Below, piece by piece: positions 14,041-57,308 of a stretch of DNA of 64,000 nucleotides (position 1 is the first letter of the stretch; the number at the start of each line of letters is the position of its first letter). A program made the translations under genes and the position numbers. Below the pieces are notes generated by a model that saw only the letters and a list, made by a program, of their open reading frames with translations, searched no databases and was not told the DNA's origin. The stretch is from an uncultured virus (IMG/VR IMGVR_UViG_3300021185_002316). Lineage: Duplodnaviria; Heunggongvirae; Uroviricota; Caudoviricetes. The stretch is taken from IMG/VR virus record IMGVR_UViG_3300021185_002316; one strand, given 5' to 3'.

Positions 14041-14208
14041 ATGGCTAAAAATAAAAAAGGAAAAGAGCAAGGAGCAGACGGCAAAGCTTGCTGGGAAGGT
14101 TACAGATATAACGGCACTGTAAATGGTAAAGATAAATGTGTAAAAATAAATCGCTATGGTGGCTTTATTGAAGAGCCATCTGTGGTAAATTTAGATAAGT
14201 TAACGTAA
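14041..14208 (+). CDS. Small 55-aa protein with CWEGY...DKCVK motif (missing from the ORF track)
   Basis: ATG at 14041 gives MAKNKKGKEQGADGKACWEGYRYNGTVNGKDKCVKINRYGGFIEEPSVVNLDKLT*. It fills the gap exactly, and its TAA overlaps the next ATG (TAATG). Confidence 0.8.
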   Translation: MAKNKKGKEQGADGKACWEGYRYNGTVNGKDKCVKINRYGGFIEEPSVVNLDKLT

Positions 14209-24722: not shown

Positions 24723-24731
24723 ATAAACAAT

Positions 24732-27011
24732 ATGGCTAATAAGTATAGTAAGTACCAGTTAAAACCTTTTGCTAGTCAGTATGTTGATCCGCAAGGTGAT
24801 AAAATTATGGAAATTTACCGTAAAAGGTATGACCAAAATAAACAGAAAAAAAATCAACTAGATCAATTATACGCAAATATAAATAGTGTATCTACTGCAG
24901 ACGAAGGAATTTTAAATCAAGCTAAAGAACAAACTAAACAATCTTTACAAAGTATAGTACAATCAGGCGCTTACGAAGACGCTGGTATAGCTTTAGATGA
25001 TGCAGTACAAGATTTTGCTACTAACAAAGGTTTAATAGCTGTTTCAAAGTCTTACCAAGTTAGAGAAAAAGAAAAAGAGTGGCAAGCAAAGGCTACAGCT
25101 GAAGGAAAGAAAGTACTAGATTTTGGTAGAGACGCTACAAAAAATCATTCTTCTTGGACGTTAGATCCAGAAACAGGAGAGTACAAAGAAAATATATACA
25201 CCCCTAAAAGCGAAATGCAGCATGATTATAATGCTGCGATAAAAAGTTATATGCCTACTATAAAGGCAGATGCGTCTGGTATTTCGCAAGGACGTATGAA
25301 TCAGCTAGCAACTCGTATTATGGGAGGGTACCTTCAAAGCCCTGAAGGAGACCAGCATTTAAGAAATCTTATGCAATTGCAGTATGATCAAAATCTTCCT
25401 GAAGAACAAAGACAACAGATGGCTATGGATAGCATCTTTAAAGCGGTTAGGCTTCACACAGATGAGCAAGTACATAGTAAAGCTGCTAGTAGTGAAAGCC
25501 AAGAATTAAATGCTAGACAAAATGCTGTTGTTAATAGTATTATGGGTGGAAGCCATACTTCAGTAAATTCAGGATACACGGCAGCAGATATTACAGATTT
25601 AGAAGATAGATCTGCTCTTGATGGAACTAACTTGTATTTTGCTGATAAAATAATCGAAGCTGAAAGTAACGGTAAAACTAAACTCGCACAGGATTATAGA
25701 AATATATTAGACAATTTAGGAAATGTAATGCTAAATGAGGGGACGTTTAATGAAGAAGAAGCAGCTCTTTATAAAAAATACGAATCTGACTTATGGAAAG
25801 ATTCTAAAGATGTTGAGAAGTTTGGTACTATGATTAAGTATATGACTGAAGATCAATGGACTCCAGACTTTAGTATGCAAGGAGGCATCATGGGCGATTG
25901 GATGTCTAGAACAGGCGTAGCTCTTGGTATAGCCGGAGCAGTTAGTGGAGGAGCGGCTTTAACTGGTGTTGGAGCAGTAGTGGCGCCTTTTGCTTTTCTG
26001 GGAGCAGGAGTTTACGCAGCGGGAGATTTAGCTGTTAGTTTAGCTTCATACACTTTAGATGGCTTTGGGAATGTTAGAGATGTTATGAGACCGGAAACTC
26101 CAGGTATAGGCCGGGGATTAGGATTTGTAGATTCTGAGCAAACGCAATTAATGCAAAACGTTGAAAATTTAGATAGAGTAAATAATATATTAGGTACAGA
26201 ATTTACTGAGAAAGATTTACCAATGCTAAAAACTAAAGCATTAGAATATTTTAAATATAAAACAGAAGGAGAGAACGGTATTACCGGAGATCAGATTGCT
26301 GAAAAAACTCATAGTTATGAGGGATCTGTATTTGAAGGTGAAGTGTGGAAACCATCTACCACTGAAGAAGGTAAAAAAGCTACTACAGCAATAACTTCTG
26401 CACTAAAAGGATACAACGTAAATGACTTTAGATTTGTTGGTGTAGATGAAGGTAGCGATATACACAAAGAAATAACTGAAGGAAAAATAGATGGGTTAGT
26501 TTATCAAGGAGCTATTGGTGGAGATATAATGGGAGATATTCCTGCGCGTCTTATGTTTAAAACTCAAAGCGGTAACTTAGTGATAGCAGAAACTAAAACG
26601 GGAGCGCAAAATGGTACTAGAAGTACTGTTGGAGATATTTTAGCAGCTGCAGGAAAATTAAACTTTTTAGTAGGTGACATAGCAAGGCAAGAAATTAACC
26701 AAATAAGAGACTCTGAAAATAGAGATGTAAATTTAGTTGATCTTAATAATTCTATTTATAGAGCTACTCAGCAAATTGGGGGTGAACAAGGTTTATCTCA
26801 GCAAGCACAGTTTATTACATATCAAGAAACTTTTAAGCAATACTTAATGAAAGTTCCGCAAGCTATGTCTAGAATAAGCGCAGCAATGAAGCCTTTTGAA
26901 GGTTTACAACAAACAAATCCAGAAGCTTACGAGAATGAGTTAAATAGGTTTATCTTTGAAGGAGATGAAAATCAACCGCCTTTAATTAAATTACCATTAA
27001 AACTTAAATAA
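24732..27011 (+). CDS. Ejected cargo protein with central hydrophobic hairpin
   Basis: N-terminal YxSQYV-like helical domain; GVALGIAGAVSGGAALTGVGAVVAPFAFLGAG; no Cys. Confidence 0.6.
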   Translation: MANKYSKYQLKPFASQYVDPQGDKIMEIYRKRYDQNKQKKNQLDQLYANINSVSTADEGILNQAKEQTKQSLQSIVQSGAYEDAGIALDDAVQDFATNKGLIAVSKSYQVREKEKEWQAKATAEGKKVLDFGRDATKNHSSWTLDPETGEYKENIYTPKSEMQHDYNAAIKSYMPTIKADASGISQGRMNQLATRIMGGYLQSPEGDQHLRNLMQLQYDQNLPEEQRQQMAMDSIFKAVRLHTDEQVHSKAASSESQELNARQNAVVNSIMGGSHTSVNSGYTAADITDLEDRSALDGTNLYFADKIIEAESNGKTKLAQDYRNILDNLGNVMLNEGTFNEEEAALYKKYESDLWKDSKDVEKFGTMIKYMTEDQWTPDFSMQGGIMGDWMSRTGVALGIAGAVSGGAALTGVGAVVAPFAFLGAGVYAAGDLAVSLASYTLDGFGNVRDVMRPETPGIGRGLGFVDSEQTQLMQNVENLDRVNNILGTEFTEKDLPMLKTKALEYFKYKTEGENGITGDQIAEKTHSYEGSVFEGEVWKPSTTEEGKKATTAITSALKGYNVNDFRFVGVDEGSDIHKEITEGKIDGLVYQGAIGGDIMGDIPARLMFKTQSGNLVIAETKTGAQNGTRSTVGDILAAAGKLNFLVGDIARQEINQIRDSENRDVNLVDLNNSIYRATQQIGGEQGLSQQAQFITYQETFKQYLMKVPQAMSRISAAMKPFEGLQQTNPEAYENELNRFIFEGDENQPPLIKLPLKLK

Positions 27012-33000: not shown

Positions 33001-33301
33001 AAAATATAAAAATGGTATATTTGATGAATTTGAGCTTTTAAAGCATGACTCTAAAGTAGAAGATTTTTCTATAAAATTTGAAGAAGCTATGAGTGAACAG
33101 CTTGTAGATGAGAATGAAGCCGGAGTTTTAAGAATATTAGACAAGTTTTTTGAAGAAGGAGAGTACGTTTTACCTGATTTAAGCGAAGAAACTTCTGAAG
33201 AAACTTCGGAAGAAGCTCCAGATAAGAGTGTAAAAAAGAAAGGTAAAGGGAGAAAACAGCAACCAACTACCAAAACAACAACAAACGAAGAAGATTGCTA
33301 A
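27011..33301 (+). CDS. Giant ejected cargo protein (2096 aa)
   Basis: QS..DKWANG..K, LPNYYT, NFWAND and EG..EEGGQ motifs typical of the crAss protein preceding the vRNAP; long coiled coils; the only Cys is the last residue. Confidence 0.7.
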   Translation: MEQDYSKYLVKPEDVATIDENNLTTSDAITADKKAAEMTPTQIRAARATQGDILKVDWDGAADVPQGMESMYGRTLHNTNYNDYAKYIDKPFSFISDDADDLRAHGQSSADKWANGMLKFAGKTGTNILGSTVGLVYGAGAFGMGLFQEGSATKKFFDNDFQRGLDGINEYMDGALPNYYTKNEQDYNLLQSMGTANFWANDFTQGLSFIAGAVLAEGLTSGMASSAVAAKATKILQGASGAKTAGRMAKAADTAADTVKAADALMDAQRLKNGLVTIRQLGTGAMYESGVEARHHYDETLNHLKEQYKEEHGAYPPPEKLAGLADLATKSSNAVFAGNLALVGYGNFMMFPKIFGKGLNSTKGALSKTIKSELKGKVRTYKEVFKDLSKREATGRAVWKALKTPLYEGVVEEGGQKLLDLSGQGAAYDYYLSKRDASSLGMIKDLLLHTEDAFGDAYGSKEGQKEIGIGFLLAAMGLPGRATTTNKDGKTSKKLTWQGGVWGSIQDAKAQQEAITKLRKRLESMPNGMQAFSRNMDTLIRNQVIQDSKDFNTIIDNPFGVHNAEHDEIFNYVSSRIRAGFESELYDDIKHIRKMPLEEFRTAFQYNEKGDLTDNQLKKRREDIANKMEERIESISTTLTKLDQSFVNFGEDQKNAIAHALSIAENSDAREDSIISELGKLKFDVNIEVEEDKAAVDKREADESKLRLKNIWQRLSPKKKKAVLEDNAEAVEKVKKTLNIKELTDPSHIEELHRTLAEEQNELIQQIEEITADESLGEKEKEKKLLELGKKQEAGLLRSAELQKAINEGLDPYISAQEQKMLDAWTKANPLESAKSLEDVKSKLKDLRKLRARRHRAISMFNELQGLREEGAWNPKGWWKVWGMEQGELIPQPELLMQRMLDTTLYQSEDSGNKQLDRLYSNFKGKIVEFQYKNEKGETSTKRFYVTPGQLTSEGDKLLQPIPSFDTIALLKQKQDLQEELEGLKAEEALLEDDDITLNVLSNAKARVQESLNSVEDTLAKHEHITDTSPANVGFLLNASSPISVVNEAKIATESLEAVTKEINKKLSNKTSDLKLEIDSAVKELKTDEALLDELLNQDVQTQEDVGVITKLQNSATSIKKHILSLETALTEIEKDLSIIHNFNKKSLKVKTAEQARTLITTLFNESFESKDYSDLYKEILENSVYSMVVNKDKSSDTIVDLNKLKALKAELEETGEVTKEMLLKAKPSIKRLYNQLAKLEKALADIESAIKFRADGTPYKNTSAAKLADRRKALGELEIAKDKLEAAKEQYRDSLNDLYAGVATISSVAGDLYDHLIFTLHTIQEFQNPTPKAEELDEGVEATQNTIMTEGELAEAQQAFGKGKPFFSSAIGSHGLFKTATDQLTAERDLQELLDAQAAGKDVDVSKVYALEAHLRFHAFLGAEDFTKPSTATKYKLMIVHRENVPSGISDDVFFYDSTGYSRGKALGQGEKSTLKSEENENILFVVTDAKGTPITRLDKFGEAKPVYASMPTSDLTRSVTVNKKGAKMDVYRYGKSDLKPSTIKVVTDVNDVQHYTGEVLSTVQTAINAHKARRNEYLAMQENEFVDIIGLNNPMVNKNTSAVKSLPSTSIKNNTSQIDLRLNISKKGEARSSVYVGNNKSSMTLKAGMPYTHLNGKLVPMYNNMLSESSAETVFQLFKIAAKNHNRMLEGKMSPEQAKRVDPSDDKSSEIMHVLKNMVFFGPRTRGKSDNALQKSLRFELRYTESGFTVFYGDYGSITMQQLLEEEATMELSQLSEHIKTLRHNINRFSLAQDITARKGGTEVEEWQKRLDAYTATLKKQKKPLSAKAIKYKQNMWMRKKGNKRPSTAAENINYESFKEYRIDNKGKIETYDWTNYTDYLLGDGTGNFKRANGNEIPLYSYLNDKISEKNKNFGRGAQFLNSYLLIGNKTMLKEDLKKKSEKEEATETEEKTVINEEFEQEMQDLSDVVEKTVPKYDNKVITAKRGKTSLEFKIKYKNGIFDEFELLKHDSKVEDFSIKFEEAMSEQLVDENEAGVLRILDKFFEEGEYVLPDLSEETSEETSEEAPDKSVKKKGKGRKQQPTTKTTTNEEDC

Positions 33302-33305
33302 AATT

Positions 33306-36300
33306 ATGGCGTGTACATTAAATATATATGACAGGAATTCAAAGTATTTTGAAGAAACAAATGCTGCATTACAAGCTTTAAATCCAACTATGGATGGTGT
33401 TCCCATTTATGATATAGAGAGACTGCGTACTTTTTTATACGGTACTAGCTATGCAGAGCACAAAGAGATTAGAGATTTGTTTTTTGAAGAGAATGCTTTA
33501 GATAAAGAAAAGCCGTTTTTGCTTTTGTTATCTAATTTAAATGAACTTGAGCTAGTAAAAAAATTACAAGAAAAACCTGAAGAGCTAGCAACTGCTTTAG
33601 AGAATTTTCAAGATTTTATCGAGCACAAACAAATGGGGCAGAGGTATAGTACTAAAAATAACAAGTACGATACCTTGTATGAGTTTTTATATGGATTTTA
33701 CAATCCTTTAGAATCTAATCAAGCTGCTATTAACGGTTCTGTTATTGGTTCAGGTGCTATGAATGTAGCATTTAAAACTACTGCTGATGGTAAACAAATT
33801 ATAGTTAAAGAGTTATCTAACAGTTTAAGACAACGTCTGAATCAAGGGATGACTACTATCTTATTTGATATAATTGCACCACAAGATTTGTTAGATTTAG
33901 TAGCTCGTAAAGGAGAATATAAAACTACTTTAAATTTAACTTACGGATCTCCTTCTTCGTCTGAGCTTTCTGTATTTACAGAGACAGTTGCGTATTTAAC
34001 TCGAAGGTACAATCAATTGTTAACTCGCCAAGATAATGCAAAAGAAGGTTCCCCTCAATTTGAGCAGCTAGAGCGAGCTTTACAAGATCTAGAGCTGTTG
34101 CTAGGAATGGATGACGATTTTAATTTTGTACTTGAAAACGGTGTACTTGCAAAAAAATGGCAAGACATTAAAAAAGATCATGCAACATACTTACGTAAAT
34201 TAGATATAGATGCAAGTTTAGCTTATGAAGATCAAACTAGCGATGATGCGCAAAAAGATACTGGAGAAATAAACAGTAGAGATTCTTTAGGTATTACACC
34301 TGCAAATCAAGTTAATCCTGTTTCTAGATTAAATAAACAACTTAAAGTAATATTAAAAACTTTACCACAAGTAGAGAAACATCTATCCGCAAGCACAAAC
34401 GAGTATGTGTTTAAAATGAACACTATGGGGTTACCTGATGGTGCTAATTTTGGGAAAGTGCTACGAACACTGTATACAGCATTAGCTGGTAAACCTGATG
34501 TAGCTAGTATGTTTAATGCTTTATCTGATTTAGCATTAAAAGATTATACTTATGCAATTTTAATAGAAAGATTAGGAATTTCTTCCGAAGGTTGGGGGGA
34601 TACAGACATAAAATCTTTAAGTGAAAATCAAGTAGAAATGCTTATAAGCTTTATTAATACTTTTAATAACGCAAATCACACTTACACAATTAACAATGTT
34701 GCATCTACTGGACAGCGTAATACGCAAAACGCAAACATGGAAGGTGCTAACCGTATAAAGAAAAGCGAGTGGCGTCAAAACTTTAAAGCTTTAGCTCAAG
34801 GCCCTCGAGGGATTATAGATACAGATGTAAATAAATATGTGTTAAATTTAGATGCAAAAGTTCAAGGTCGAACTGTTAAAGACAGGTTAAACTATGTAGG
34901 GAGTTCTTCTAAAGAAATGATTGAAAATCTAGCTCTATTAGGAATAGTATTTACAGATCCTGATAGTATGGAAGCTTTAGCAGACTTAGAGTTTGAGTCT
35001 TTTTCTGATGCAGTAAAAAATATTTTTAAAGATGTTGTAGAGCAAGAAGGTAATATTTCTGATGTTTTTGAGTTAGATCTAGGAGGTAGATTTAATACAT
35101 TACTTGAAATGGATAATGATTCTACTATCAATGCAGGTACATTGCAACTACGAGGTATAGACAATTCAACTATATACGCCATCTCTTTAAAAGGGTTTAA
35201 TGATTTAATGGCTGATAGTATAAATGAAGGCTCAGAGTTAGCGTCTAGCTTGCAGGATTCACCTACTGCTGTAAACTCTATAATTTTAAATAACAATGAG
35301 ACATTAGAGATCTCTACAATGTTAGGAACAGTAAATACTGACGATAATAGAGGTATAGGTGTAACTAATACTGGTCTTGGAGATACCGCAGTGCAAGAGA
35401 TCTCATCGATACTTGATGGTAGAGTTCCAATGATTAAGTCTGGTAACAAAACTACACACACAGCATTACGAATTGGTAAAGGATCCCCTTCATATAATAC
35501 TACTGAAAAGGAATACATAGAGAGACTTGTTGGTTATTTAGAGGATGAGATTGTTACGGCGCAAATGATTACTCATGGTGCAGGTAAACAAATTAAAGGT
35601 CTAACAAAAAGAGGTAGCAGTTTACAGTTTTTTAATCACACGGATTTTGCAGATATAAAATCTATTGCAGAAGGGTTGATTAATTCTAGTAAAACTACAA
35701 GAGGTGATGTCCAAAAAAGCTTAGAAACTTACAAAGCATTGATTCAAACTACTTTTAAAGCTCATATTAAAGAGCAAAAAAGAAGAGTTAAAGAAACACT
35801 GCTAGAATTTAACGTTATCAGTAAAAGCGGAAAAGTCTTATCTAATATAGGGATCGATTCTAATCAATTAGAAATGTTAGAACGAAACTCTCTCAATGGC
35901 AAACTAACCGGAGATAGCCTTAATGACGCCTTGTTTGACAAACTAGCTGAGCAAATAGTGTTTATACGTGATACAAGTTTACACGAGCAGTTTAAAATAT
36001 TTTTAGGGCATCCTGCAGTATTTACAGATTTGTTTAAACGTACATCTTTATTTATTGGGCCTAAGAAATATCCAATTACTGATGGAAAAGTTCTAGACTG
36101 GGCGGAGCAAGCTTACCCTAATTTAGGTAATCCTACACGTTATGCTAACATACGTAGCACAAGTGAAGTTAGATATATTACTAGAAAAGAAGTTACAGAA
36201 ATTTCTAAATACAAAAATGAGTATGTAGAAGTTTTAAAAGCATTGCAAAAAAAGAATAACTTAAGTGAAGAAACATATTTAGCTCCAATATTAGACATAG

Positions 36301-39300
36301 TAGAAAAAACTTATGGTGGAGAAGGTGTTGTAGGAAAGTATACACACCAGGACGGTGGTATGGAAGTAAATGATGGGGGTGGATTTATACATATTGATTT
36401 CTATAGAAGAGTTAGATTATTGACAGACTCTTGGAATGAAAAAGCAGAAAAAGCTTATCAAAATGTTATTTCTGGAAATGCTACTGAAACAGATTTAGGG
36501 GTTTTAGCTCCATTAAAACCGCAGGTAGTTGCGCAAGCTTTAGAAGACGGTATTGACATACGTATTGGTAATAAATTTGCATTATTCCCTATACATCCTA
36601 ATATGACTAAAGTTGTAGGTACAGAGTCTGGGCAATCTGTAGCAGACAGTATATATGCTGATATGAATAAGCATAACTTAGATTACATGGTAATGGAGTC
36701 TGCGTCTAAAGTGTCTCCTAAAATGAATTCTAAACTAAGGTTTGACGATTACATAGATGAAAATGAGAATTACAAAGCTTTAGAAGATGACTCTGCTGTA
36801 CAGGTTTACTCGTTAGATTTCTTTGGAGTTCAAATGGATCCTAAAGATAAGCGAGGTAAAAAAGTATCAGTAGGTACTCAGATTTTATCCAGTTTACTTA
36901 CAAACATATTCAATAACGCTAAAACGAACCCTAGATATAAAGGAGATTTTAAACCAGGAGAAACATGGACTCAGGCTGCAGAGCGTTATCACAAATTAAA
37001 CGGAGACTTAGTTCAAAGAGAGGCTCAACAACTAGCTGCAAAGCTTGGTTTCTTATACGACAAAGATGCAGTAGCATCTGAAGGCGAAAGTAAATTTGTT
37101 TCTATAGATCCCTCTATTACAAGAGAATCTATGCGAGATACAATTCTAGATGAATTAGATCGTCGAGAAGTACCTGCAAACATGCGTAATTCTATTTGGA
37201 ACATTTTTGAAGGAGACAACAATTTATTAAATCAGATAGCAGAAAAAAGTAGACTAGAGATTATAATTAACTCTATTATTACAAATTCTATTGTTCAACG
37301 GAAAATGAATGGAGATATGGTTGTTCTTCAGTCTAATTTTGGTTTAACTGTAGAAAATAAAGCTGTAAAACAAAAAAATGCTAGTGAAGGTATTAGAGGG
37401 TTACGTCGTTTAGAATTTTATAGAAAAGATTCTAAAGCAGGTGTTGCATTAGTAGATCAAGAGACATTAGCAATGGAAGTGTACATGCCTCATAGTATGC
37501 GTGAATTTTTTGGTAAAGAAATACCTGAATATATTGAGCTTACAGAAGAGGTAAAAGAAGCTATAGGGTTTCGTATACCTACAGAAGGATTAAACTCAGT
37601 AGAGTTTATTAAAATAGTAGATTTCCTACCTAAAGAGTATGGGTCTACTATTATTGTACCGTCTGAGATGGTTGCTAAGTCAGGGGCCGATTTTGATATT
37701 GATAAATTAACTTTGTATTTACCAAATACAGAGATTATAGAAAATAAAGTTCAGCTAGCAAGAGAAGTTAAAGGTTTGAGTACAATGGACTTTGAATACT
37801 TAGCTACAGCAGATGTAAATGCTTTTAAAGTGCTTGCATATGATTTGCTACCTACAACAGCTGCTAAAAAAATAATTAAGCAGCTTGATAAAATTAAAAA
37901 TGATACTGCTATAATTAATGGTTTATTTAAAGCTTTTAAAGATCACCCTGTTCTAAAAGCAAAGCAAGCTAGTATTGATGATTTAAGAGCAGAGCGGTTA
38001 GAAACTTCTGACATAGAAACAAAAAGAGAACTTAAAAAGTTAGAGCGGGATCTTATAAAAGAGATACAAGAGCAGTTGTTCACCATGAATGACAATGACT
38101 TATTTGACGGGCAAGAATTTGATAAAGTTAAGCTTAAGCAGTTTAGAGCTAAAAGTAAAGATGATATTTTATCTATAGCTAAACGAGTTAGTAATGCTTA
38201 CATGAAGTTAAGCCCTGAAGAGAAAGCAAATAAATACCCTCTTTTACAAACAAGGCAATACCAGGAAAATCAAATGCAAATCTTTATGCGTGATGTTCTA
38301 CGTCACCCAGAAAGTTTTGATCAATTGATTACTCCGGTAGGAGCTTTTGGATTTAAAGAGATTGCTTATGAAATAAGCCAACGTATAACTGGAGAAAGAA
38401 ACTGGGTCAGAGACGAAGTGACTAAAGAGTACACCGGAGAGCAAATACAAAAAGAGTTATATGATAAGTTATCTTTAAAAAATTTAATAGAAACTACTAA
38501 TAACTTTTACCAAACTCTTGGAGGTACTGGTATTGTGGCAACTACAGCTACGCACAACACTAAAATGCAAAAATACAATGTTAAGTTTAGTGCAGATAGA
38601 GCTACAATTAATTTTGAGAAATATCACAAAAGCTTAAACATTGGTAATGTATATTCTTTTGGTTCTGATAGAGCAATTAATGCAGAAATGCAGCAGTATA
38701 TCACAGCTTATGTCGATGGTGAAAAAGATCCATTTGCTGTATTTGTAAATGCAGGTAAAAATGGTGCAGCAGTTCACATGCTTCTATTAAGATTAGGTGT
38801 GCCACTTAGAGAGACTTTATTTTTTATGTCTCAACCTATTATTACAGACTTTTTACGAATGAAAAGTATATATCAATCGCAATCTGCGGCTACATCAGAC
38901 CAGTATTTAAGTAATGATGATATAGTAGAAGATCTTAACAGTGGAAAATATAAAACAACACTACCTTCAGAAAATACAAAGTTTTCATTAGAAGATTTGG
39001 ATTTAATGCTAGACAAAGATACATTCAGTGATCAAGAAAACGCTTATCAGCAACAAATTCTAAATGATTACTTACATTATAAAGAGCTAGCTGAAGATTT
39101 AAGAAACTTAGTTACTATACATTCTTACGATAAAATGACAATTAAGAATGGTAGTGAAAATATATGGCTTGAAGCTTTAGAGATGCATGTTGAAAACAAT
39201 GAAGCTTTTGAAGGAGCTATGGTTCCTATAGAAGATCCTGGTTCTATGCTGTCTTACAGTAGAGATGCAATTATGGCTTCTACTGAGTTATTGTCTGAAG

Positions 39301-40628
39301 TAGATCTTAAAAACTCTAATAAAGATATACGAGATTTCTATACGTCGAAAGCGTTAGAAATGATACAGCTTGGAAAGTCTAAAGATGAAATCGTGTATAC
39401 GCTAAATAAATATGACAATTTTGTAAGTATAAGTCAAATACATAATGTTGTAGTAAATGATTCAAGCATTGCTAGCAGAGTTAGCGGGCTATTTCAAGGA
39501 CCAAATAGTGTACCTAAAAGAATAAAAGCTTTACAAGAGTCTGACGAAATATCTAACCTTGCATTGGATAATTTTTTACCGCTATTAGATGTATATATAA
39601 AAGGATCTGCAAACGCTACTGTAGACGGACTAAGACTTAGAGAAGGTAAATATGATACTTATGATATTGACATGCTTAGTGAGTCTTTTGAAGAAATAAA
39701 AAGACTGCAGCCTGATTTACATCAAGATATTATTTTGTATAGCTTATTGCAATCTGGTGTAGACTTTAATCCAAATGCATTCTACTCTTTAATATCCCCT
39801 GAAGATATGTTAAGTATTACTGATGATGCTTTTACTGGGATCCGTAATTTAGATAACCCGCATAGAATTCTAGAAGGGCTGTGGAATAATTTTATGTCTT
39901 CTAATCATGATAATGGTAGAATTGTAGCTCAACGTTTTGTGGGACAAAAGAATGCTGCGCTTTTAGGGGCGATGGCTAAAGGGACTCTTAGTGAAAAGAT
40001 GTTAAGTAATTTAAAAGGTAATGAAGTAACGTTAACTAAAAAAGTTGGATCTGAGTATATTTCTATATTTTTTAAACGTCAAGCTCCTGGAAGCAAATGG
40101 AGACAAGCTGATAAAAAAGGTATAAAAAACATGCTAATAGAAACTTCAAACATGCAGTCTATTATAGTTAGAAACCAATTTCCTGATATTGCAGGAACGC
40201 TATCTGTTACTAATAAAGTAGCAAACATGATAATAAATGAAGAAAAAACTATGTATGCAGGACCTAAAAAAAATATAGGAAGCTATGTTTTAGATAATCA
40301 AGCAATAGTTAATATTGTTGATAAAGGATATTACGGTACAGCAAAGACTGTATTAGCTGCAATTAAAAAGAATACTAATGAAGAGATGACTGCTGCAGAG
40401 CTAGCTGAAGCTTTTGGATACAGCACACTTAAAGCAGCTAAAGCGTCTCCTAAATATGCTAAATTTTTTGCAAATAACGTTAAAAAAGGTAAAATGTATG
40501 TGTATGATTTAAATGTTGTAACTTTACCTGATAGTGAAATTTTCTTTAATGAAGAGGAAGGGGTAGAAAATCCAGAGTCTGTGTTAACAAGAGAAGAAGG
40601 AATAAACGAATCTGAATGTAATAGCTAA
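33306..40628 (+). CDS. Virion-packaged single-polypeptide two-barrel RNA polymerase (phi14:2 gp66-like)
   Basis: Catalytic GADFDIDKL (DFDID codons 37689-37703), GFRIPTEG, and upstream beta-like motifs DGGGFI, LKP, KFALFP, ESASKV; YVDGEKDP. Confidence 0.92.
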   Translation: MACTLNIYDRNSKYFEETNAALQALNPTMDGVPIYDIERLRTFLYGTSYAEHKEIRDLFFEENALDKEKPFLLLLSNLNELELVKKLQEKPEELATALENFQDFIEHKQMGQRYSTKNNKYDTLYEFLYGFYNPLESNQAAINGSVIGSGAMNVAFKTTADGKQIIVKELSNSLRQRLNQGMTTILFDIIAPQDLLDLVARKGEYKTTLNLTYGSPSSSELSVFTETVAYLTRRYNQLLTRQDNAKEGSPQFEQLERALQDLELLLGMDDDFNFVLENGVLAKKWQDIKKDHATYLRKLDIDASLAYEDQTSDDAQKDTGEINSRDSLGITPANQVNPVSRLNKQLKVILKTLPQVEKHLSASTNEYVFKMNTMGLPDGANFGKVLRTLYTALAGKPDVASMFNALSDLALKDYTYAILIERLGISSEGWGDTDIKSLSENQVEMLISFINTFNNANHTYTINNVASTGQRNTQNANMEGANRIKKSEWRQNFKALAQGPRGIIDTDVNKYVLNLDAKVQGRTVKDRLNYVGSSSKEMIENLALLGIVFTDPDSMEALADLEFESFSDAVKNIFKDVVEQEGNISDVFELDLGGRFNTLLEMDNDSTINAGTLQLRGIDNSTIYAISLKGFNDLMADSINEGSELASSLQDSPTAVNSIILNNNETLEISTMLGTVNTDDNRGIGVTNTGLGDTAVQEISSILDGRVPMIKSGNKTTHTALRIGKGSPSYNTTEKEYIERLVGYLEDEIVTAQMITHGAGKQIKGLTKRGSSLQFFNHTDFADIKSIAEGLINSSKTTRGDVQKSLETYKALIQTTFKAHIKEQKRRVKETLLEFNVISKSGKVLSNIGIDSNQLEMLERNSLNGKLTGDSLNDALFDKLAEQIVFIRDTSLHEQFKIFLGHPAVFTDLFKRTSLFIGPKKYPITDGKVLDWAEQAYPNLGNPTRYANIRSTSEVRYITRKEVTEISKYKNEYVEVLKALQKKNNLSEETYLAPILDIVEKTYGGEGVVGKYTHQDGGMEVNDGGGFIHIDFYRRVRLLTDSWNEKAEKAYQNVISGNATETDLGVLAPLKPQVVAQALEDGIDIRIGNKFALFPIHPNMTKVVGTESGQSVADSIYADMNKHNLDYMVMESASKVSPKMNSKLRFDDYIDENENYKALEDDSAVQVYSLDFFGVQMDPKDKRGKKVSVGTQILSSLLTNIFNNAKTNPRYKGDFKPGETWTQAAERYHKLNGDLVQREAQQLAAKLGFLYDKDAVASEGESKFVSIDPSITRESMRDTILDELDRREVPANMRNSIWNIFEGDNNLLNQIAEKSRLEIIINSIITNSIVQRKMNGDMVVLQSNFGLTVENKAVKQKNASEGIRGLRRLEFYRKDSKAGVALVDQETLAMEVYMPHSMREFFGKEIPEYIELTEEVKEAIGFRIPTEGLNSVEFIKIVDFLPKEYGSTIIVPSEMVAKSGADFDIDKLTLYLPNTEIIENKVQLAREVKGLSTMDFEYLATADVNAFKVLAYDLLPTTAAKKIIKQLDKIKNDTAIINGLFKAFKDHPVLKAKQASIDDLRAERLETSDIETKRELKKLERDLIKEIQEQLFTMNDNDLFDGQEFDKVKLKQFRAKSKDDILSIAKRVSNAYMKLSPEEKANKYPLLQTRQYQENQMQIFMRDVLRHPESFDQLITPVGAFGFKEIAYEISQRITGERNWVRDEVTKEYTGEQIQKELYDKLSLKNLIETTNNFYQTLGGTGIVATTATHNTKMQKYNVKFSADRATINFEKYHKSLNIGNVYSFGSDRAINAEMQQYITAYVDGEKDPFAVFVNAGKNGAAVHMLLLRLGVPLRETLFFMSQPIITDFLRMKSIYQSQSAATSDQYLSNDDIVEDLNSGKYKTTLPSENTKFSLEDLDLMLDKDTFSDQENAYQQQILNDYLHYKELAEDLRNLVTIHSYDKMTIKNGSENIWLEALEMHVENNEAFEGAMVPIEDPGSMLSYSRDAIMASTELLSEVDLKNSNKDIRDFYTSKALEMIQLGKSKDEIVYTLNKYDNFVSISQIHNVVVNDSSIASRVSGLFQGPNSVPKRIKALQESDEISNLALDNFLPLLDVYIKGSANATVDGLRLREGKYDTYDIDMLSESFEEIKRLQPDLHQDIILYSLLQSGVDFNPNAFYSLISPEDMLSITDDAFTGIRNLDNPHRILEGLWNNFMSSNHDNGRIVAQRFVGQKNAALLGAMAKGTLSEKMLSNLKGNEVTLTKKVGSEYISIFFKRQAPGSKWRQADKKGIKNMLIETSNMQSIIVRNQFPDIAGTLSVTNKVANMIINEEKTMYAGPKKNIGSYVLDNQAIVNIVDKGYYGTAKTVLAAIKKNTNEEMTAAELAEAFGYSTLKAAKASPKYAKFFANNVKKGKMYVYDLNVVTLPDSEIFFNEEEGVENPESVLTREEGINESECNS

Positions 40629-40633
40629 AATAT

Positions 40634-43600
40634 ATGTCGTGTAGGATAAACAGAGCAGAAGATGGCTCAATAGAAAGTGTAACTGATAGATTTGGACGTG
40701 AGTCTGAACTTTTTAAACAAATAAATAAAGTACTAGATAATGGAGCTAACGAGGATGTTGCCTACGCGGCATATTTAAAAGCAACGTCTATTGCTAAAAC
40801 TATGCAGTTAAGTTCAGAGCCCTCTCTTACTGGTAACGTCGTGCAAGGAATTTTAGAGAGTGTAAATGATAATTGGACTGCTTGGGAAAATGTTAGCTCA
40901 GAATTAAAAATAGCTGAAGCCCAAAGCAATCTAGAAATGTCTTTACATCATTTCCTAAACAAAGTAGGAGTAAAAGTAAGAACAGTACCTACATTACGAG
41001 ATGAAGACGGTAACGATGTAAGCGCTGCAGGTTTAGCAGATATGACTAACAGAGTTATACAATTATCTAAAGATTCTGCAGATATAAGCACTTTAAGTGA
41101 AGAAACAGCCCATTTTGTTGTAGAAATACTACGAAAAGATGATAATCCGTTGTTTAAATCTATGTACAACCTTATTGAAGGGTACCAGGAATTTAAAGAT
41201 ATTTCTAAACCAGATAGTTTCTACTTTAAGAAGTACGATGGTAATATTGATATGCTTAAGCGGGAAGCTATAGCTAAAGTCGTGACCACACATTTGGTTA
41301 ACGGAGAACAAAAAAATGAATCAAAAGAGAATGTATCGAGACTAAAAAGATGGTGGGATCGAGTTATGCAGTACATAGGAAAGATGATGGGAAAAACCCA
41401 AACAGACCCATTTACCTCAGCTGCTGAAGTAGTCTTCAACAATAACCTTGAGACATTAGTTAACATAGACCCAGTATCCGCTAAACTTACAGGTACATTT
41501 TATCAGGATCTCTCCCGTGATGAAACTTTAAAAATGTTTAAAAAGTTTGAAGGAGTTTACGGTATTAAGGATTTAGAAATAAGTAAGCTCTCATCAAAAG
41601 AGTTTAAAAAGTATTTTAAAAAGGTTGCAGGAGAAGATGAAACAATACCTAGATATGTAGGTAAAAAAAATACTCCGTATGAAGACCAGATTTTAAAGCT
41701 TAGGGGTTCAGATGCTAACTCTATTTCATTTAATAGATTAAAGCAAGATAAATTTGTTGGTGAGCAAGAAGCTAAGCGTTTAAAAAACAACGCTGATGTT
41801 AGAATGGAGTTTGGTACTCAAGGTCACTTAGTGATGGAGGATCTAGTTGGGCTAGTGTTTGAAAACAAAAGCTCTTTAGTTAGAATTATGCGGAAGCAAA
41901 AGATATTTACGGACGATCAAGTTAAAATGCTTCACAAATCCGTTTTACATCTTAAAAAAGAAACAGACGCACAACAAAGGAAAGTAGAACTTGAAGGTGG
42001 GCCTAAAGGTAAGCCAATTGTATTGCTAGAACAGTTTATTTCTGATGAAAAGCAAGGTGCAGGGGGTAAAATCGATTTACTTGTATTGTATACAGATAAT
42101 TCTGCAAGTATCTATGATTATAAATTCAAAGGTACAAATGGTAATACATCTAAATGGAATAAAAACACTAAACATTTAGAAATAACAGGAGATATGTATG
42201 CTAACTCTATAGAAGGGTATGACTCTCAATTAGGTATATATAGAGACGCTCTCTTAGGAAAGTACGGTGTAACAAAAGTTCGACAATCCCGGATAATACC
42301 TGTAGCAGTAAAGTATAAAAACAAAGATGGGTACTTGTTTCAGAGTGCGGAGCAAATAGCTGTATGGACAGGGTCTGAAGACGACAGTGTGCATATGCAG
42401 CACATACCAGTTGCTGAAGAGATGACAGGTATAGAGAGTGTCGATAAATTAATACAAGCTGAAGTACGACGTTATAGAAAATTATCTTTGAAGTTACGTC
42501 ACGCACCATTTAAAGATCGTGAAGAGCTACAGCTTAGAATGAATACATCTAGATCGATAACTAAAGATCTACAATTATCTCAAAATGTTACACATGCATT
42601 ATCAGAGGCTGCTAGATTGTTAGAGCGGGCTGAGCAAGGTATGAGTCAACAAGATCCGTTTACTTTAAACGCTAAGAATGAAAAAGTTGTAAATCCTAAG
42701 TATTTAACTGAAAAAGAACTGTTAGAGTTGTACGAAGAGCTACAACACTTTAAACATTTTACAGAGTTATATCAAGTTAGAAAAACACTTAGAGAGAGTA
42801 AGTCTGCAGCTATGAAAAAAATAGCTAAAAAACTACTTGGTGATATAGATAAAAGTGCGGGTCTTATCGGGGCTACTATAGATGGATTACGATCTGCAAT
42901 TGTTTATCGTATGGATAGTAAAGCTAAAGAGCTAGGTATTAAAAATTTTAAGTACAACAGAGCTATAGGGTATTCGTCTAGATACTTGGATATTTCAGAA
43001 CACGATAGTCCGTACAGTAGATACGTACATGAAACTATGCAAGCTGTAAATGGAGCAGCTATAAAGTTTGAGAAAAAATTACAAGAGGATATTCAGCAAA
43101 AAGAAAACGTATTAAAAAGATACGCAGACAGTGTGGGAATAACATTACAAGAGGCATTCTCAGAGTTAATAAATCCAGTGACATTTAACTTACATGCAAA
43201 GTATTCTAATGAGTTTTACATAGCAAAAGATAAAGCTATACAAGAAGGAGATTCTACTTGGATGCAGAAATACTATTCTATTAATGAAGAGTATTATAAC
43301 GAAGTGTTTACTAAGTGGAAAACAGATCAATTTAGAAGACTGAGCCAAAAATACAGTAAAGCTCCTACAGAATTAGAAAGAGCAAAACAAAATTGGTTAA
43401 AACGATATGACGTTAAGAATCATGCATCAGCGTGGTTAGATGTTGGAGGAAAATATTTTACTTTTATTAATGAAGACGCAGCTAACAAAAATAATTTTAT
43501 TACTTCAGAGTTTACTAAGATTTCTAGAACTCCAGAATTAAAAGAGTTTTATGACTTTCATGTATCTAAAATTAAAGAGTTTGAGCGTAGATTTGGTACT

Positions 43601-45580
43601 GACTTAGGGCATACATTTGTGCCTAACGTGCAAAAATCGCTAGTTGACTCATTATTAGAATCAGATAACAAATGGTCGTCTTTTACAGCGGCTATGGCAG
43701 ATAACTTTAAAGCCCGTCAGCATCAGATGGATCTATCTTATCAAGATAAAGACGGTAACCCTCTAAGACAAATACCTAGATTATATACTGCAGAACTTAC
43801 TAGCGAAGATGAGTTTGGTAATGAGGTTGTAGATAAATCTCTAAGATCTACTGAGCTTGGACGGTCTTTGTATTTACTTGGTCAAGCTGCTATACGATAT
43901 GAACTAAAAACTGAAATCGAAGATGAGTTTTTATTAATTAAAGCTATTCTAGATGATGGAGCTATTAGTGAAGTAGCTGAGAATAAAGAAGGTCGATCTG
44001 TAAAAGCAGGGTTTAATAGAGTTAAAACGTTATTCACTACGGCTAGTAGTGCAGAGCAATTTACTGATATAATTGATAATGCTTTGTATGGTGTAAATTT
44101 AAAAACTAAAGATATAGTTTCTAAAGATGGATACAGTTTAAATCGTACGTTCTTAAGTTTAAAGACATTCCACTCGATTGCAGCGCTTGGTCTCAAGACT
44201 CCAGTTGCACTTGGTGCTATGTTTTCAGGAACATTAGGTATCCATATACAAGGATCTAAAGCTTTACACTTTACAAACAAACAAGTGAGAGCCGCAGAAG
44301 CTATGTTCTTATCTAGAGATCCTAAAGTAAGAGCGGTAGTAGATTACTTCCAGTTAGCTGTATTAGATGTTTCTAATCGTAGAGCAGATATGCTTTCTTC
44401 TAGTTATAGAGCTAAATACTTAACAGGAGATAGATGGTTTGAATTCTTAGCACAAGCAGATAAAGTAGTTGATTCTATATTAGGTGTAGCTATGGCTCAA
44501 AACCACGGATTTGATTCTAACGGTAAATTAAAAAGATTATCTCAACTTCCTAAAGGTACTAAGTCTTTACTAGATAGTATGGAAATCACAGATAATGAAA
44601 ATTATGAGCCTGGCACAAACATGGATAAGTATACTGTTAAGATACCAGGGGAAACTGATAGCGCTTATAATAGCTTTAGAGCTAGACATAAAAAACTAAG
44701 TACAAAGATTAAAGGTACGGCCCACCCTGAAGCAGTTACTACAGCGGGCATGTCGTTAATTAACAGATTCTTCCTACACTATAGATCTTGGTTACCAGGA
44801 CTAGCTAATGAAAGGTTTTCAGGACTTAAGTTTGATAACGTTCTTGATCATTGGGATCAAGGTACGTGGAGAGGATTTTTTGGTAATTTTGGTCCAGATC
44901 AAGAGTTTGATGATTTTAACCAATTAGTTACAGCTGAGTTAGGAGCTTTAGAATATGCTAGCACAGTTTTAGTAGATATAGGGAAGATAGCTCTCGACAT
45001 TAGTACGTTTGGATTAACTTCCGCGCATAAGACTAAAGAAGGTAAAGCGAGAATACAGTTTGAGCAGTACATTCAGGATCAATCTATGAATGAAGAGTTC
45101 AAATATGACACAGCAGAAGAGAAAGAAGAAGCATACCAACAATTTTTAGAAATGAAACGTGGAAATCTCAGAGGAGCTATGGCGGAGTTAAGAGCTGTAG
45201 TTATGCTTTTAATGTTAATGATGATGCTTGGCGGAGACTGGGATGAAGATGGTAAAATTGATATACGCCAAACTTACGTAGGTAGAAAAATGTATAACAT
45301 ATTAAGTAGAGTGTATAGAGAAACTGCTGTATTTTGGGATCCAACAGAGATGACTGGTCCTAGATCTACAGGTATCCCGTTACTTGGGTTGATACAAGAT
45401 GGAATTAAACTAGTACGTAATACATCTGATGAGCTTTGGGATAGAGTAACTGGACGTCAAGGCGTAGAAAAGAATGACCGAGTTGAGGCAGGGTACTATA
45501 CGTTTAAACTTGCTCCAGGATTAGGTGGTTTAGCTAAAGCTCTTGAAATTTATCCTCAGCATAAACAGTCTAAAACTTAA
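40634..45580 (+). CDS. Giant ejected cargo protein with degenerate zincin and PD-(D/E)xK nuclease-like domains
   Basis: LSEETAHF...REAIAK...RWWDR (zincin-like); GTQGH...E...GKIDLL...IYDYK...QLGIY (nuclease); hydrophobic C-terminal segment. Confidence 0.7.
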   Translation: MSCRINRAEDGSIESVTDRFGRESELFKQINKVLDNGANEDVAYAAYLKATSIAKTMQLSSEPSLTGNVVQGILESVNDNWTAWENVSSELKIAEAQSNLEMSLHHFLNKVGVKVRTVPTLRDEDGNDVSAAGLADMTNRVIQLSKDSADISTLSEETAHFVVEILRKDDNPLFKSMYNLIEGYQEFKDISKPDSFYFKKYDGNIDMLKREAIAKVVTTHLVNGEQKNESKENVSRLKRWWDRVMQYIGKMMGKTQTDPFTSAAEVVFNNNLETLVNIDPVSAKLTGTFYQDLSRDETLKMFKKFEGVYGIKDLEISKLSSKEFKKYFKKVAGEDETIPRYVGKKNTPYEDQILKLRGSDANSISFNRLKQDKFVGEQEAKRLKNNADVRMEFGTQGHLVMEDLVGLVFENKSSLVRIMRKQKIFTDDQVKMLHKSVLHLKKETDAQQRKVELEGGPKGKPIVLLEQFISDEKQGAGGKIDLLVLYTDNSASIYDYKFKGTNGNTSKWNKNTKHLEITGDMYANSIEGYDSQLGIYRDALLGKYGVTKVRQSRIIPVAVKYKNKDGYLFQSAEQIAVWTGSEDDSVHMQHIPVAEEMTGIESVDKLIQAEVRRYRKLSLKLRHAPFKDREELQLRMNTSRSITKDLQLSQNVTHALSEAARLLERAEQGMSQQDPFTLNAKNEKVVNPKYLTEKELLELYEELQHFKHFTELYQVRKTLRESKSAAMKKIAKKLLGDIDKSAGLIGATIDGLRSAIVYRMDSKAKELGIKNFKYNRAIGYSSRYLDISEHDSPYSRYVHETMQAVNGAAIKFEKKLQEDIQQKENVLKRYADSVGITLQEAFSELINPVTFNLHAKYSNEFYIAKDKAIQEGDSTWMQKYYSINEEYYNEVFTKWKTDQFRRLSQKYSKAPTELERAKQNWLKRYDVKNHASAWLDVGGKYFTFINEDAANKNNFITSEFTKISRTPELKEFYDFHVSKIKEFERRFGTDLGHTFVPNVQKSLVDSLLESDNKWSSFTAAMADNFKARQHQMDLSYQDKDGNPLRQIPRLYTAELTSEDEFGNEVVDKSLRSTELGRSLYLLGQAAIRYELKTEIEDEFLLIKAILDDGAISEVAENKEGRSVKAGFNRVKTLFTTASSAEQFTDIIDNALYGVNLKTKDIVSKDGYSLNRTFLSLKTFHSIAALGLKTPVALGAMFSGTLGIHIQGSKALHFTNKQVRAAEAMFLSRDPKVRAVVDYFQLAVLDVSNRRADMLSSSYRAKYLTGDRWFEFLAQADKVVDSILGVAMAQNHGFDSNGKLKRLSQLPKGTKSLLDSMEITDNENYEPGTNMDKYTVKIPGETDSAYNSFRARHKKLSTKIKGTAHPEAVTTAGMSLINRFFLHYRSWLPGLANERFSGLKFDNVLDHWDQGTWRGFFGNFGPDQEFDDFNQLVTAELGALEYASTVLVDIGKIALDISTFGLTSAHKTKEGKARIQFEQYIQDQSMNEEFKYDTAEEKEEAYQQFLEMKRGNLRGAMAELRAVVMLLMLMMMLGGDWDEDGKIDIRQTYVGRKMYNILSRVYRETAVFWDPTEMTGPRSTGIPLLGLIQDGIKLVRNTSDELWDRVTGRQGVEKNDRVEAGYYTFKLAPGLGGLAKALEIYPQHKQSKT

Positions 45581-57050: not shown

Positions 57051-57308
57051 TTATCTAAATTTTGCCACTTTACCGTTAGAACCTAGTGATTTAGGGTCTC
57101 TGTAAGTTGGCATTGTCGATGGTCTCTTGTATGTTTTTGGGTATCCAAATCCAAACACAAGCTCAAATATACCAGTAGTTACAAAACCTGGTTTGTTTTT
57201 CTCTGCTAATTTCTTAGCATGTCTTTCTCTCCAGTATTCAGTTTCTCTTCCCTTGGAAACAAATGGTTTCTTATCAAGAGGCTTATAGTCTAAATATCCT
57301 TTTTTCAA
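57051..57308 (-). CDS. Hypothetical basic protein
   Basis: 85-aa ORF coupled (ATGA) to the SPL-like gene. Confidence 0.55.
   Translation of the reverse strand: MKKGYLDYKPLDKKPFVSKGRETEYWRERHAKKLAEKNKPGFVTTGIFELVFGFGYPKTYKRPSTMPTYRDPKSLGSNGKVAKFR

What the first reader, a model, noticed from the sequence alone, without database searches (positions are those of the whole stretch)
27011..45580. Cysteines only at the junctions of the three giant ejected proteins: candidate disulfide-linked 'cargo train' carrying the virion RNA polymerase
Seen: reading the translations by eye, the 2096-aa protein has a single Cys, its last residue (...NEEDC*, codon 33296-33298). The 2440-aa RNAP has only Cys3 (MAC, 33312) and Cys2438 (...SECNS*, 40617). 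The 1648-aa protein has only Cys3 (MSC, 40640). That is 4 Cys in 6,184 aa, arranged so that A(C-term) could pair with B(N-term) and B(C-term) with C(N-term). The free outer ends have none, and the three smaller upstream cargo proteins (21112-27011) have none. Known: ejected proteins such as the N4 vRNAP are Cys-free, consistent with unfolded passage through the tail and an oxidising periplasm. Inference: the terminal Cys were retained to link the proteins head-to-tail in gene order. They would then be packaged stoichiometrically, threaded through the tail as one chain, and released by the reducing cytoplasm. A terminal metal clasp or thiol-based ligation are alternatives.
Basis: partly seen in the sequence, partly recalled or inferred. 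Interest (0 to 1): 0.92.

Follow-up and report, generated by a model that had tools for sequence, protein, structure and literature searches.

The report
Terminal cysteines chain crassvirus cargo proteins
Three giant proteins that this crAss-like phage probably packs and injects, its RNA polymerase in the middle, have cysteine only at the ends that face the next protein, which suggests they are tied head to tail by disulfide bonds.

Summary
A (27011-33301, 2096 aa) has one Cys, its last residue. B, the RNA polymerase (33306-40628, 2440 aa), has Cys3 and Cys2438. C (40634-45580, 1648 aa) has Cys3. That is 4 Cys in 6,184 residues.

The pattern is a rule across Crassvirales:
- 239 of 240 polymerase homologues have a C-terminal Cys.
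- 45 of 48 C homologues have Cys3 or Cys4 and none has a C-terminal Cys.
- 67 of 75 stand-alone A homologues have a C-terminal Cys and none an N-terminal one.

Where genes are fused the junction pair is gone. A+B fusions keep only the C-terminal Cys. Three A+B+C fusions of 5862-6118 aa have no terminal Cys.

The rule survives in crAss001, where gene A lies on the other strand, so it acts on the proteins. An unrelated cyanophage, A-4L, has the same signature, and there cryo-EM shows the disulfide.

My best reading is a head-to-tail disulfide chain A-B-C in the virion. The bond itself is untested in crassviruses, and I found no description of it. Earlier notes of this scan report the same pattern on at least 23 other genomes.

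The parts
27011..33301 (+). Cargo protein A (2096 aa), homologue of crAss001 gp47; its sole Cys is the last residue
   Evidence: phmmer to crAss001 gp47 gives E 2.2e-27. PHROG 32390. The last 60 residues are polar and low in hydrophobic residues (0.22, against 0.37 for the whole protein).
33296..33298 (+). Cys2096 codon (TGC) of A, the last codon before the stop
33306..40628 (+). Cargo protein B (2440 aa), the virion RNA polymerase; Cys only at residues 3 and 2438
   Evidence: A profile of B and 9 homologues matches PDB 6vr4_A (phi14:2 gp66 polymerase) at E 3.3e-20.
33312..33314 (+). Cys3 codon (TGT) of B
37689..37703 (+). Catalytic DFDID motif of the polymerase (B residues 1462-1466)
   Evidence: D1462, D1464, I1465 and D1466 are invariant in alignment A1; D1462, D1464 and D1466 also in A3. 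The motif is named in preprint 10.1101/2020.03.07.982082.
40617..40619 (+). Cys2438 codon (TGT) of B, third residue from the end
   Evidence: This column is invariant in the 25-sequence alignment A3.
40634..45580 (+). Cargo protein C (1648 aa); Cys only at residue 3. By position it corresponds to phi14:2 gp65 and crAss001 gp49
   Evidence: The correspondence rests on position only: phmmer found no match to gp65 or gp49 at E 1e-3.
40640..40642 (+). Cys3 codon (TGT) of C
   Evidence: At least 90% conserved in alignment A2.
21112..27011 (+). Three smaller upstream ORFs (307, 895 and 759 aa), all Cys-free. By position they are candidates for the C1 and C2 cargo proteins; they are not part of the Cys chain
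   Evidence: No Pfam or PHROG hit. In relatives, the junction between the about 750-880-aa protein and A has no Cys on either side.
15089..21112 (+). Muzzle protein (2007 aa, 5 Cys), which marks the virion module as crassviral
   Evidence: PF25731 crAss_MUZ at E 8e-49. Tail ring proteins R2 and R1 lie at 12217-12939 and 14208-15089.

Best explanation
A, B (the virion RNA polymerase) and C are packaged cargo proteins. They have been purged of cysteine except for one thiol at each terminus that faces the next protein.

In the virion, the C-terminal Cys of A bonds to Cys3 of B, and Cys2438 of B bonds to Cys3 of C. This gives a linear, polarity-preserving A-S-S-B-S-S-C chain, the covalent equivalent of the single polypeptide that fused relatives encode.

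Because the Cys sit 0-3 residues from the upstream C-terminus and at residue 3-5 of the downstream protein, the linked chain is hardly thicker than one polypeptide. The loss of all other Cys avoids wrong cross-links.

Inferred consequences: fixed 1:1:1 association in the capsid, ejection N-to-C as one thread through the tail, and separation when host thiols reduce the bonds in the cytoplasm.

Shown here: the sequence rule and its covariation with gene fusion. Shown elsewhere: the same signature as a real disulfide in phage A4, and disulfides in other crAss001 virion proteins. Inferred: the bond in crassviruses, and every functional consequence.
For: 1. Window pattern; p = 1.3e-12 for chance placement.

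2. Conservation down to about 22% identity:
- 119 of 120 polymerase homologues have a Cys in the last 7 residues, as do 120 of 120 longer ones.
- That set holds 384 Cys in 953,958 residues (0.040%), 274 of them terminal.
- C family: 45 of 48 have Cys3 or Cys4, 0 of 48 a C-terminal Cys.
- A family at 1350-3000 aa: 67 of 75 have a C-terminal Cys, 0 of 75 an N-terminal one.

3. Pairing across 80 loci: 104 of 141 adjacent junctions have both Cys, 29 neither, 8 the upstream one only, and 0 the downstream one only. Seven of the 8 carry an in-frame M-S-C start that my first-ATG rule overshot. After 70% de-duplication there are 68 junction types with both, 23 with neither and 2 mixed.

4. Background ORFs in the same loci: 1.13% Cys; 5 of 53 have a Cys at positions 2-5 and 2 of 53 in the last 4 residues.

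5. Fusions:
- L008 and L009 (4625 and 4636 aa) contain A then B and have a single, C-terminal Cys.
- p-crAssphage gp45 has a C-terminal Cys. Its gp44, annotated as a polymerase fused to a further subunit, has Cys3 and no C-terminal Cys.
- The A+B+C fusions P0300, P0397 and P0301 have 0, 1 and 1 Cys, none terminal or at a junction.

6. The effect is at protein level. crAss001 gp47 is on the + strand; gp50 and gp49 are on the - strand, and the Cys are kept. Intergenic gaps at paired junctions range from -11 to 265 nt.

7. Cultured references fit: phi14:2 gp67 (Cys1797, last residue), gp66 (Cys3, Cys2179) and gp65 (Cys3). All three are annotated as found by virion MS/MS.

8. Precedent: A-4L gp27 (1717 aa, sole Cys1715) and gp26 (1114 aa, sole Cys5). 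Their disulfide is resolved by cryo-EM (PMC12002296, passages).

9. crAss001 virions contain inter-subunit disulfides in the tail and in gp57 (PMC10172136, passages).
Against: - No experiment shows the bond in any crassvirus. The cargo proteins were not resolved in the crAss001 reconstruction.
- The covariation rests on few independent events. An RNAP-core tree of 221 representatives needs only 4 or more architecture changes, so the Fisher p-values overstate independence.
- Gut crassviruses tolerate internal Cys. p-crAssphage gp44 has 7 and ctcc615 has 16, which weakens the argument that every other Cys must go.
- Virions assemble in a reducing cytoplasm, and gut phages live without oxygen, so when and whether the bonds form is open.
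- The phi14:2 preprint suggests that fused forms are cleaved. If so, fused lineages manage without a covalent link, and the link may serve assembly rather than ejection.
- 8 of 75 stand-alone A homologues and 3 of 48 C homologues lack the expected Cys. I take these for truncated gene calls but did not prove it.
Confidence: 0.65

Rival explanations
1. Metal clasp: the two facing thiols, with nearby carboxylates or the free termini, bind a metal ion that holds the termini together without a covalent bond. Such a clasp could form in the reducing cytoplasm during assembly.
For: Acidic residues often precede the upstream Cys: NEEDC and ESEC in the window, and the EEDPFKC type in relatives. A clasp would solve the problem of bonding in a reducing cell.
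Against: There is only one Cys per terminus. No conserved His or second Cys lies nearby. The identical signature in A-4L is a disulfide by cryo-EM.
Confidence: 0.1
2. The terminal Cys do not bond to each other. Each attaches its protein to something else (portal, capsid interior, another copy of itself), or acts as a redox or processing signal. The pairing is a by-product of having free internal termini.
For: The crAss001 virion uses many disulfides between structural proteins. The copy number of cargo proteins is estimated at about 6 each, which leaves room for homotypic links.
Against: This does not explain why the outermost ends never carry a Cys: 0 of 75 stand-alone A N-termini and 0 of 48 C C-termini. 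Nor does it explain why both Cys of a junction are lost together on fusion, with no junction having only the downstream Cys (0 of 141).
Confidence: 0.1
3. Different wiring: B is closed on itself (Cys3 to Cys2438) and A bonds to C.
For: The number of Cys is even in every architecture, so this wiring is arithmetically possible.
Against: Each fusion would orphan two Cys that then have to swap partners. The junction wiring needs no swap. A-4L shows upstream C-terminus bonded to downstream N-terminus.
Confidence: 0.05
4. Nucleotide-level artefact: the TGY codons belong to a translational coupling or re-initiation signal at abutting genes, not to a protein feature.
For: Both window junctions read TAA-AAT-(n)-ATG-NCG-TGT, with gaps of 4 and 5 nt.
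Against: The Cys are kept where A is on the opposite strand (crAss001, cr85_1, IAS). They are also kept across gaps of up to 265 nt, and the upstream Cys sits 0-3 codons from the stop in no fixed register.
Confidence: 0.02

Closest known systems
Cyanopodophage A4 / Anabaena phage A-4L pre-ejectosome proteins gp27 and gp26 (PNAS 2025, PMC12002296)
   Same: Two consecutive ejection-protein genes. The upstream protein has a single Cys 2 residues from its C-terminus (Cys1715 of 1717). The downstream protein has a single Cys at residue 5. The paper resolves a disulfide between exactly these residues in the virion (passages).
   Different: - No detectable homology to the crassvirus proteins: hhalign probability is 0.2% for gp26 against the C family and 6.2% for gp27 against the polymerase family.
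- It has one link between two proteins, not a chain of three, and no polymerase.
- The passages I read treat the bond as stabilising a ring and state no general rule.
Crassvirales virion polymerase module: phi14:2 gp67-gp66-gp65 and crAss001 gp47-gp50-gp49
   Same: The window's A, B and C are this module. A matches gp47 at E 2.2e-27 and B matches gp50 at E 2e-20; the B profile matches PDB 6vr4. Both reference phages carry the same terminal Cys.
   Different: Nothing differs in kind; the window's clade simply has no internal Cys at all. The texts I read do not mention these Cys: the phi14:2 preprint has 0 hits for cysteine, Cys or disulfide, and the crAss001 paper mentions disulfides only in tail and capsid proteins.
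Cys-suppressed ejection operon of Schitoviridae (N4 gp50, DEV gp71-gp73; PMC11445570)
   Same: Giant ejected virion RNA polymerase and partners, with Cys far below the proteome average. The published explanation is passage through the oxidising periplasm (passages).
   Different: In N4-like phages suppression is essentially total and the polymerase is one protein. Here four terminal Cys are positively retained, and the polymerase is of the two-barrel type.

Membership tests
Crassvirales virion RNA polymerase cargo module | Two-barrel RNA polymerase with a DFDID catalytic motif | tested here: met
   DFDID at B residues 1462-1466. Profile A1 matches 6vr4_A at E 3.3e-20. tblastn matches phi14:2 g066 and crAss001-type polymerases. 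A single-sequence phmmer search against the PDB found nothing.
Crassvirales virion RNA polymerase cargo module | Placed after the tail ring and muzzle genes, and flanked by two giant partner proteins | tested here: met
   PF25702, PF24228 and PF25731 lie upstream. A matches crAss001 gp47. C has 48 homologues, which sit next to polymerases in the loci.
Crassvirales virion RNA polymerase cargo module | The proteins are present in virions | not testable with these tools
   Known for phi14:2 (MS/MS notes in the record) and for crAss001 (PMC10172136). No data exist for this phage.
Disulfide-linked consecutive ejection proteins (A4 gp27-gp26 type) | Sole Cys at the C-terminus of the upstream protein and sole Cys at the N-terminus of the downstream protein | tested here: met
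   Window. A-4L.
Disulfide-linked consecutive ejection proteins (A4 gp27-gp26 type) | Sequence homology to gp27 or gp26 | tested here: not met
   hhalign probabilities of 0.2% and 6.2%. Only gp26 against the C family and gp27 against the polymerase family were compared.
Disulfide-linked consecutive ejection proteins (A4 gp27-gp26 type) | Disulfide observed in the particle | not testable with these tools
   Needs non-reducing gels, mass spectrometry or cryo-EM of a crassvirus.
Cys-free ejected proteins (Schitoviridae type) | Complete absence of cysteine | tested here: not met
   Four Cys are retained, all terminal. Internal positions are Cys-free, as in N4 gp50.

The most novel reading that the evidence does not exclude
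Terminal-cysteine disulfides are a general device that evolved more than once in podophages: in Crassvirales and, without detectable homology, in the A4 cyanophage. The device makes separately encoded ejection proteins behave as one translocating polypeptide. Reduction in the host cytoplasm is the switch that releases, and perhaps activates, the virion RNA polymerase. Gene fusion and terminal Cys pairs would then be interchangeable evolutionary solutions to the same need.
Probability: 0.3. Interest if true: 0.85.

Novelty: new variant of a known kind. Interest (0 to 1): 0.72.

Why it matters
Crassviruses are the most abundant phages of the human gut. How they deliver about 5 MDa of cargo protein, including the polymerase that starts infection, is unresolved (PMC10172136; PMC13434306).

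A covalent head-to-tail chain would explain three things: how three giant proteins stay in fixed proportion, how they could leave in order through a channel narrower than 50 Å, and why fused and split gene architectures alternate in the order.

The idea can be tested at once on two cultured phages, and possibly on non-reduced mass-spectrometry data that already exist.

Tried and rejected
- Complex prediction. A job with the window's own two pieces only (C residues 1-650, B residues 2191-2440) gave 'no answer', score 0.00, with an uncertain fold for the partner. It says nothing either way.
- Recoding or readthrough joining the ORFs. Rejected: the frames differ (4 and 5 nt between genes in the window; 9 and 2 nt in L001).
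- Nucleotide signal. Rejected.
- Thiol-based or native-chemical ligation. Unlikely, because the downstream Cys is at residue 3-5 and never 1-2.
- Lipoprotein-type Cys. No signal peptide precedes it; it is residue 3.
- Homology of A-4L gp26 and gp27 to the crassvirus families. Not found.
- phmmer of the window's C against phi14:2 gp65 or crAss001 gp49, and of A, B and C against Intestiviridae proteins. No hits at E 1e-3, so those correspondences rest on position and annotation.
- P0413 and P0428 (5125 and 5284 aa, 0 Cys). They matched A but neither my B nor my C profile, so their architecture is unresolved and I did not count them as triple fusions.
- Pfam and PHROG searches gave no family for B or C; A matched only PHROG 32390, of unknown function.
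- The final Nature version of the phi14:2 paper is not held; I read only the preprint.
Full report
**What is in the window.** The window is a crassvirus genome segment. Tail ring proteins R2 and R1 (PF25702, PF24228) and the muzzle protein (PF25731, E 8e-49) are followed on the + strand by three ORFs of 307, 895 and 759 aa. Three giant ORFs come next: A (27011-33301, 2096 aa), B (33306-40628, 2440 aa) and C (40634-45580, 1648 aa). A replication module lies on the other strand.

B is the virion RNA polymerase. It carries DFDID at residues 1462-1466. It matches crassvirus polymerases by tblastn. As a profile, it matches the phi14:2 gp66 structure 6vr4_A at E 3.3e-20. A matches crAss001 gp47 at E 2.2e-27.

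**The observation.** It holds to the residue. A has one Cys, its last residue. B has Cys3 and Cys2438. C has Cys3. The three smaller upstream proteins have none. That is 4 Cys in 6,184 residues, whereas most other window ORFs carry 0.2-3.5%. Random placement would give this arrangement with p = 1.3e-12.

The tail of A that carries the Cys is polar and poor in hydrophobic residues (0.22 in the last 60 residues, against 0.37 overall).

**Conservation.**
- Polymerase homologues of 1343-4270 aa: 119 of 120 have a Cys within the last 7 residues. The exception has it 10 residues from the end.
- Longer homologues of 4271-4918 aa: 120 of 120.
- Together these 240 proteins hold 384 Cys in 953,958 residues (0.040%), and 274 of them are terminal.
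- C homologues: 45 of 48 have Cys3 or Cys4 and 0 of 48 a C-terminal Cys. The 3 without have no Cys at all. One is much shorter than the rest and one is about 70 residues shorter than close relatives with the same C-terminus, so I suspect truncated calls.
- A homologues (149 representatives at 50% identity): 67 of 75 proteins of 1350-3000 aa have a C-terminal Cys and 0 of 75 an N-terminal one. For 3000-5200 aa the figure is 39 of 41.

**Pairing at junctions.** In 80 viral-contig loci I called + strand ORFs of at least 300 aa by the first-ATG rule and examined all 141 adjacent junctions.
- 104 have both an upstream C-terminal Cys and a downstream N-terminal Cys. In these the upstream Cys is 0-3 residues from the end in 102 and 9 in 2; the downstream Cys is at residue 3-5 in 102 and at 7 or 8 in 2.
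- 29 have neither.
- 8 have the upstream one only, and 0 the downstream one only.
- Seven of the 8 are p-crAssphage-like loci in which an in-frame M-S-C start lies 26-34 codons downstream of the ATG I chose, as in 14 or more sibling loci. One is a fragmented assembly.
- The junctions with neither Cys are the small cargo protein next to A, genes after C, and broken genes.
- After single-linkage de-duplication at 70% identity there are 93 junction types: 68 with both, 23 with neither, 2 mixed.
- Background ORFs in the same loci have 1.13% Cys. A Cys lies at positions 2-5 in 5 of 53, and in the last 4 residues in 2 of 53.

**Natural experiments with fusion.**
- L008 and L009 encode 4625- and 4636-aa proteins. 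The window's A aligns to residues 45-2169 and B to 2322-4514. Their only Cys is C-terminal, and the next protein starts M-A-C. The A tail aligns up to the residue before its Cys and runs on into a Cys-free linker.
- p-crAssphage gp45 (1957 aa) ends with Cys1956. Its gp44 (4070 aa) is annotated as a polymerase fused to a further subunit; it starts M-S-C and has no C-terminal Cys.
- P0300 (5862 aa), P0397 (5894 aa) and P0301 (6118 aa) contain A, B and C in one chain. The B and C profiles map inside them. They have 0, 1 and 1 Cys, none terminal or at a junction.
- So the number of terminal Cys equals twice the number of junctions in all four architectures.

**How many independent events.** An RNAP-core tree of 221 representatives needs at least 4 architecture changes (shuffled labels: mean 35.8, minimum 32). 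The independent events are therefore few, and the Fisher p-values (8e-20 de-duplicated) overstate independence.

The two split clades break at different places relative to a LYHEA[WFY]H zincin-like domain. The domain lies on the A side in crAss001 gp47 and p-crAssphage gp45, and on the B side in 25 of 35 split-type polymerase proteins. It is absent from the window's A, B and C. This argues for separate fissions, each with its own Cys pair.

**Protein level, not DNA level.** In crAss001, gp47 is on the + strand while gp50 and gp49 are on the - strand. Yet gp47 has only Cys2339 of 2341, gp50 has Cys5 and Cys2404 (plus Cys1334), and gp49 has only Cys5. cr85_1 and IAS virus are alike. Gaps at paired junctions range from -11 to 265 nt.

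phi14:2 fits perfectly: gp67 has Cys1797 (its last residue), gp66 has Cys3 and Cys2179, and gp65 has Cys3. The rule was seen in Steigviridae, Suoliviridae and Intestiviridae records. I did not test a Crevaviridae record.

**Mechanism.** I take the pairs to be inter-protein disulfides that make a head-to-tail chain A-B-C.
- Direct precedent: Anabaena phage A-4L gp27 (1717 aa) has a single Cys at 1715, and the next gene's product gp26 (1114 aa) has a single Cys at 5. The A4 cryo-EM paper resolves a disulfide between exactly these residues in the pre-ejectosome (PMC12002296, passages). I found no homology between those proteins and the crassvirus families, so this is an analogue.
- crAss001 virions contain disulfides in the tail and in gp57 (PMC10172136, passages).
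- Cys suppression in ejected proteins is established for N4-like phages (PMC11445570, passages).
- Threading as one chain, fixed stoichiometry and reductive release are inference. The crAss001 authors infer N-to-C ejection for gp45 and partial unfolding of cargo in a channel narrower than 50 Å, which a polarity-preserving chain would suit.
- Points against are listed in the Against line. The main ones are the reducing site of assembly, the internal Cys in gut lineages, and the suggestion that fused forms are cleaved.

**Literature.** Six full-text searches and term look-ups found no mention of terminal cysteines or a disulfide between crassvirus cargo proteins. The look-ups covered the crAss001 atlas, the phi14:2 preprint, a Crassvirales review and the 2026 N4 paper. 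The final phi14:2 paper was not available, and extended-data tables were not seen.

Earlier notes of this scan describe the same pattern on at least 23 other genomes. They pointed me to the Cys1715-Cys5 detail of A4, which I then checked myself.

**Verdict.** This is a new variant of a known kind, namely disulfide-linked ejection proteins. Here it extends to a three-protein chain that includes the virion polymerase, follows an order-wide rule, and trades off against gene fusion.

Noticed in passing
Relatives: crAss001 gp47 residue 2157 (L082), p-crAssphage gp45 residue 1743 (L092), P0125 residue 2249, and 25 split-type polymerase proteins at residues 671-1202: A LYHEA[WFY]H (HExxH, zincin-like) domain sits on the A side of the break in some lineages, on the B side in others, and at the A/B boundary in fusions. 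The window's A, B and C have no HExxH at all.
   Followed up: partly
C-terminal tails of polymerase homologues (P0001-P0240); A-4L gp27 (L091): A [DN]P[FL] tripeptide lies within the last 12 residues in 39 of 239 Cys-bearing tails, against 0.6% of random 12-mers from the same proteins. The counts are not phylogenetically independent. A-4L gp27 ends with D-N-P-C-Q-F. This may be a docking motif beside the Cys.
   Followed up: partly
Many A+B proteins (e.g. P0042 Cys3312 of 4256; P0150 Cys3143 of 4300); crAss001 gp50 Cys1334; cr85_1 Cys1331: A single internal Cys recurs about 950-1150 residues before the C-terminus in many lineages. Its partner or role is unknown. The window's B lacks it.
   Followed up: no
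L092 (p-crAssphage gp44), L090 (ctcc615), L093 (IAS virus), compared with the window's clade: Gut and animal-associated crassviruses carry more internal Cys in the polymerase proteins (7, 16 and 9) than the window's clade and marine phi14:2, which have 0. This may reflect relaxed selection without oxygen. I did not look at the habitat of the unnamed loci.
   Followed up: no
L085 (cr4_1): Under table 11 the annotated cargo genes hold 7-38 in-frame stops, so this phage reads a stop codon as sense in its late genes. The terminal Cys rule still holds.
   Followed up: no
window 572-5272 (+): A 1566-aa ORF with 54 Cys (3.45%) and no Pfam hit, the opposite extreme of the cargo proteins. By position it may be a tail fibre or other external virion protein.
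   Followed up: no
window 57305-58162 (-) and 7653-8135 (+): A spore-photoproduct-lyase-like gene (PF20903, E 1e-26) lies in the replication module. A small protein with collagen triple-helix repeats lies in the virion module.
   Followed up: no
L083 (cr108_1), L090 (ctcc615), L092 (p-crAssphage): These crassviruses have annotated thioredoxin genes. None of the 26 window ORFs I scanned hit a thioredoxin family.
   Followed up: no
L052, L053: The polymerase region is broken into several ORFs of 387-1135 aa, and N runs give X in the translation. It is probably an assembly or recoding problem. It accounts for one of the 8 discordant junctions.
   Followed up: no
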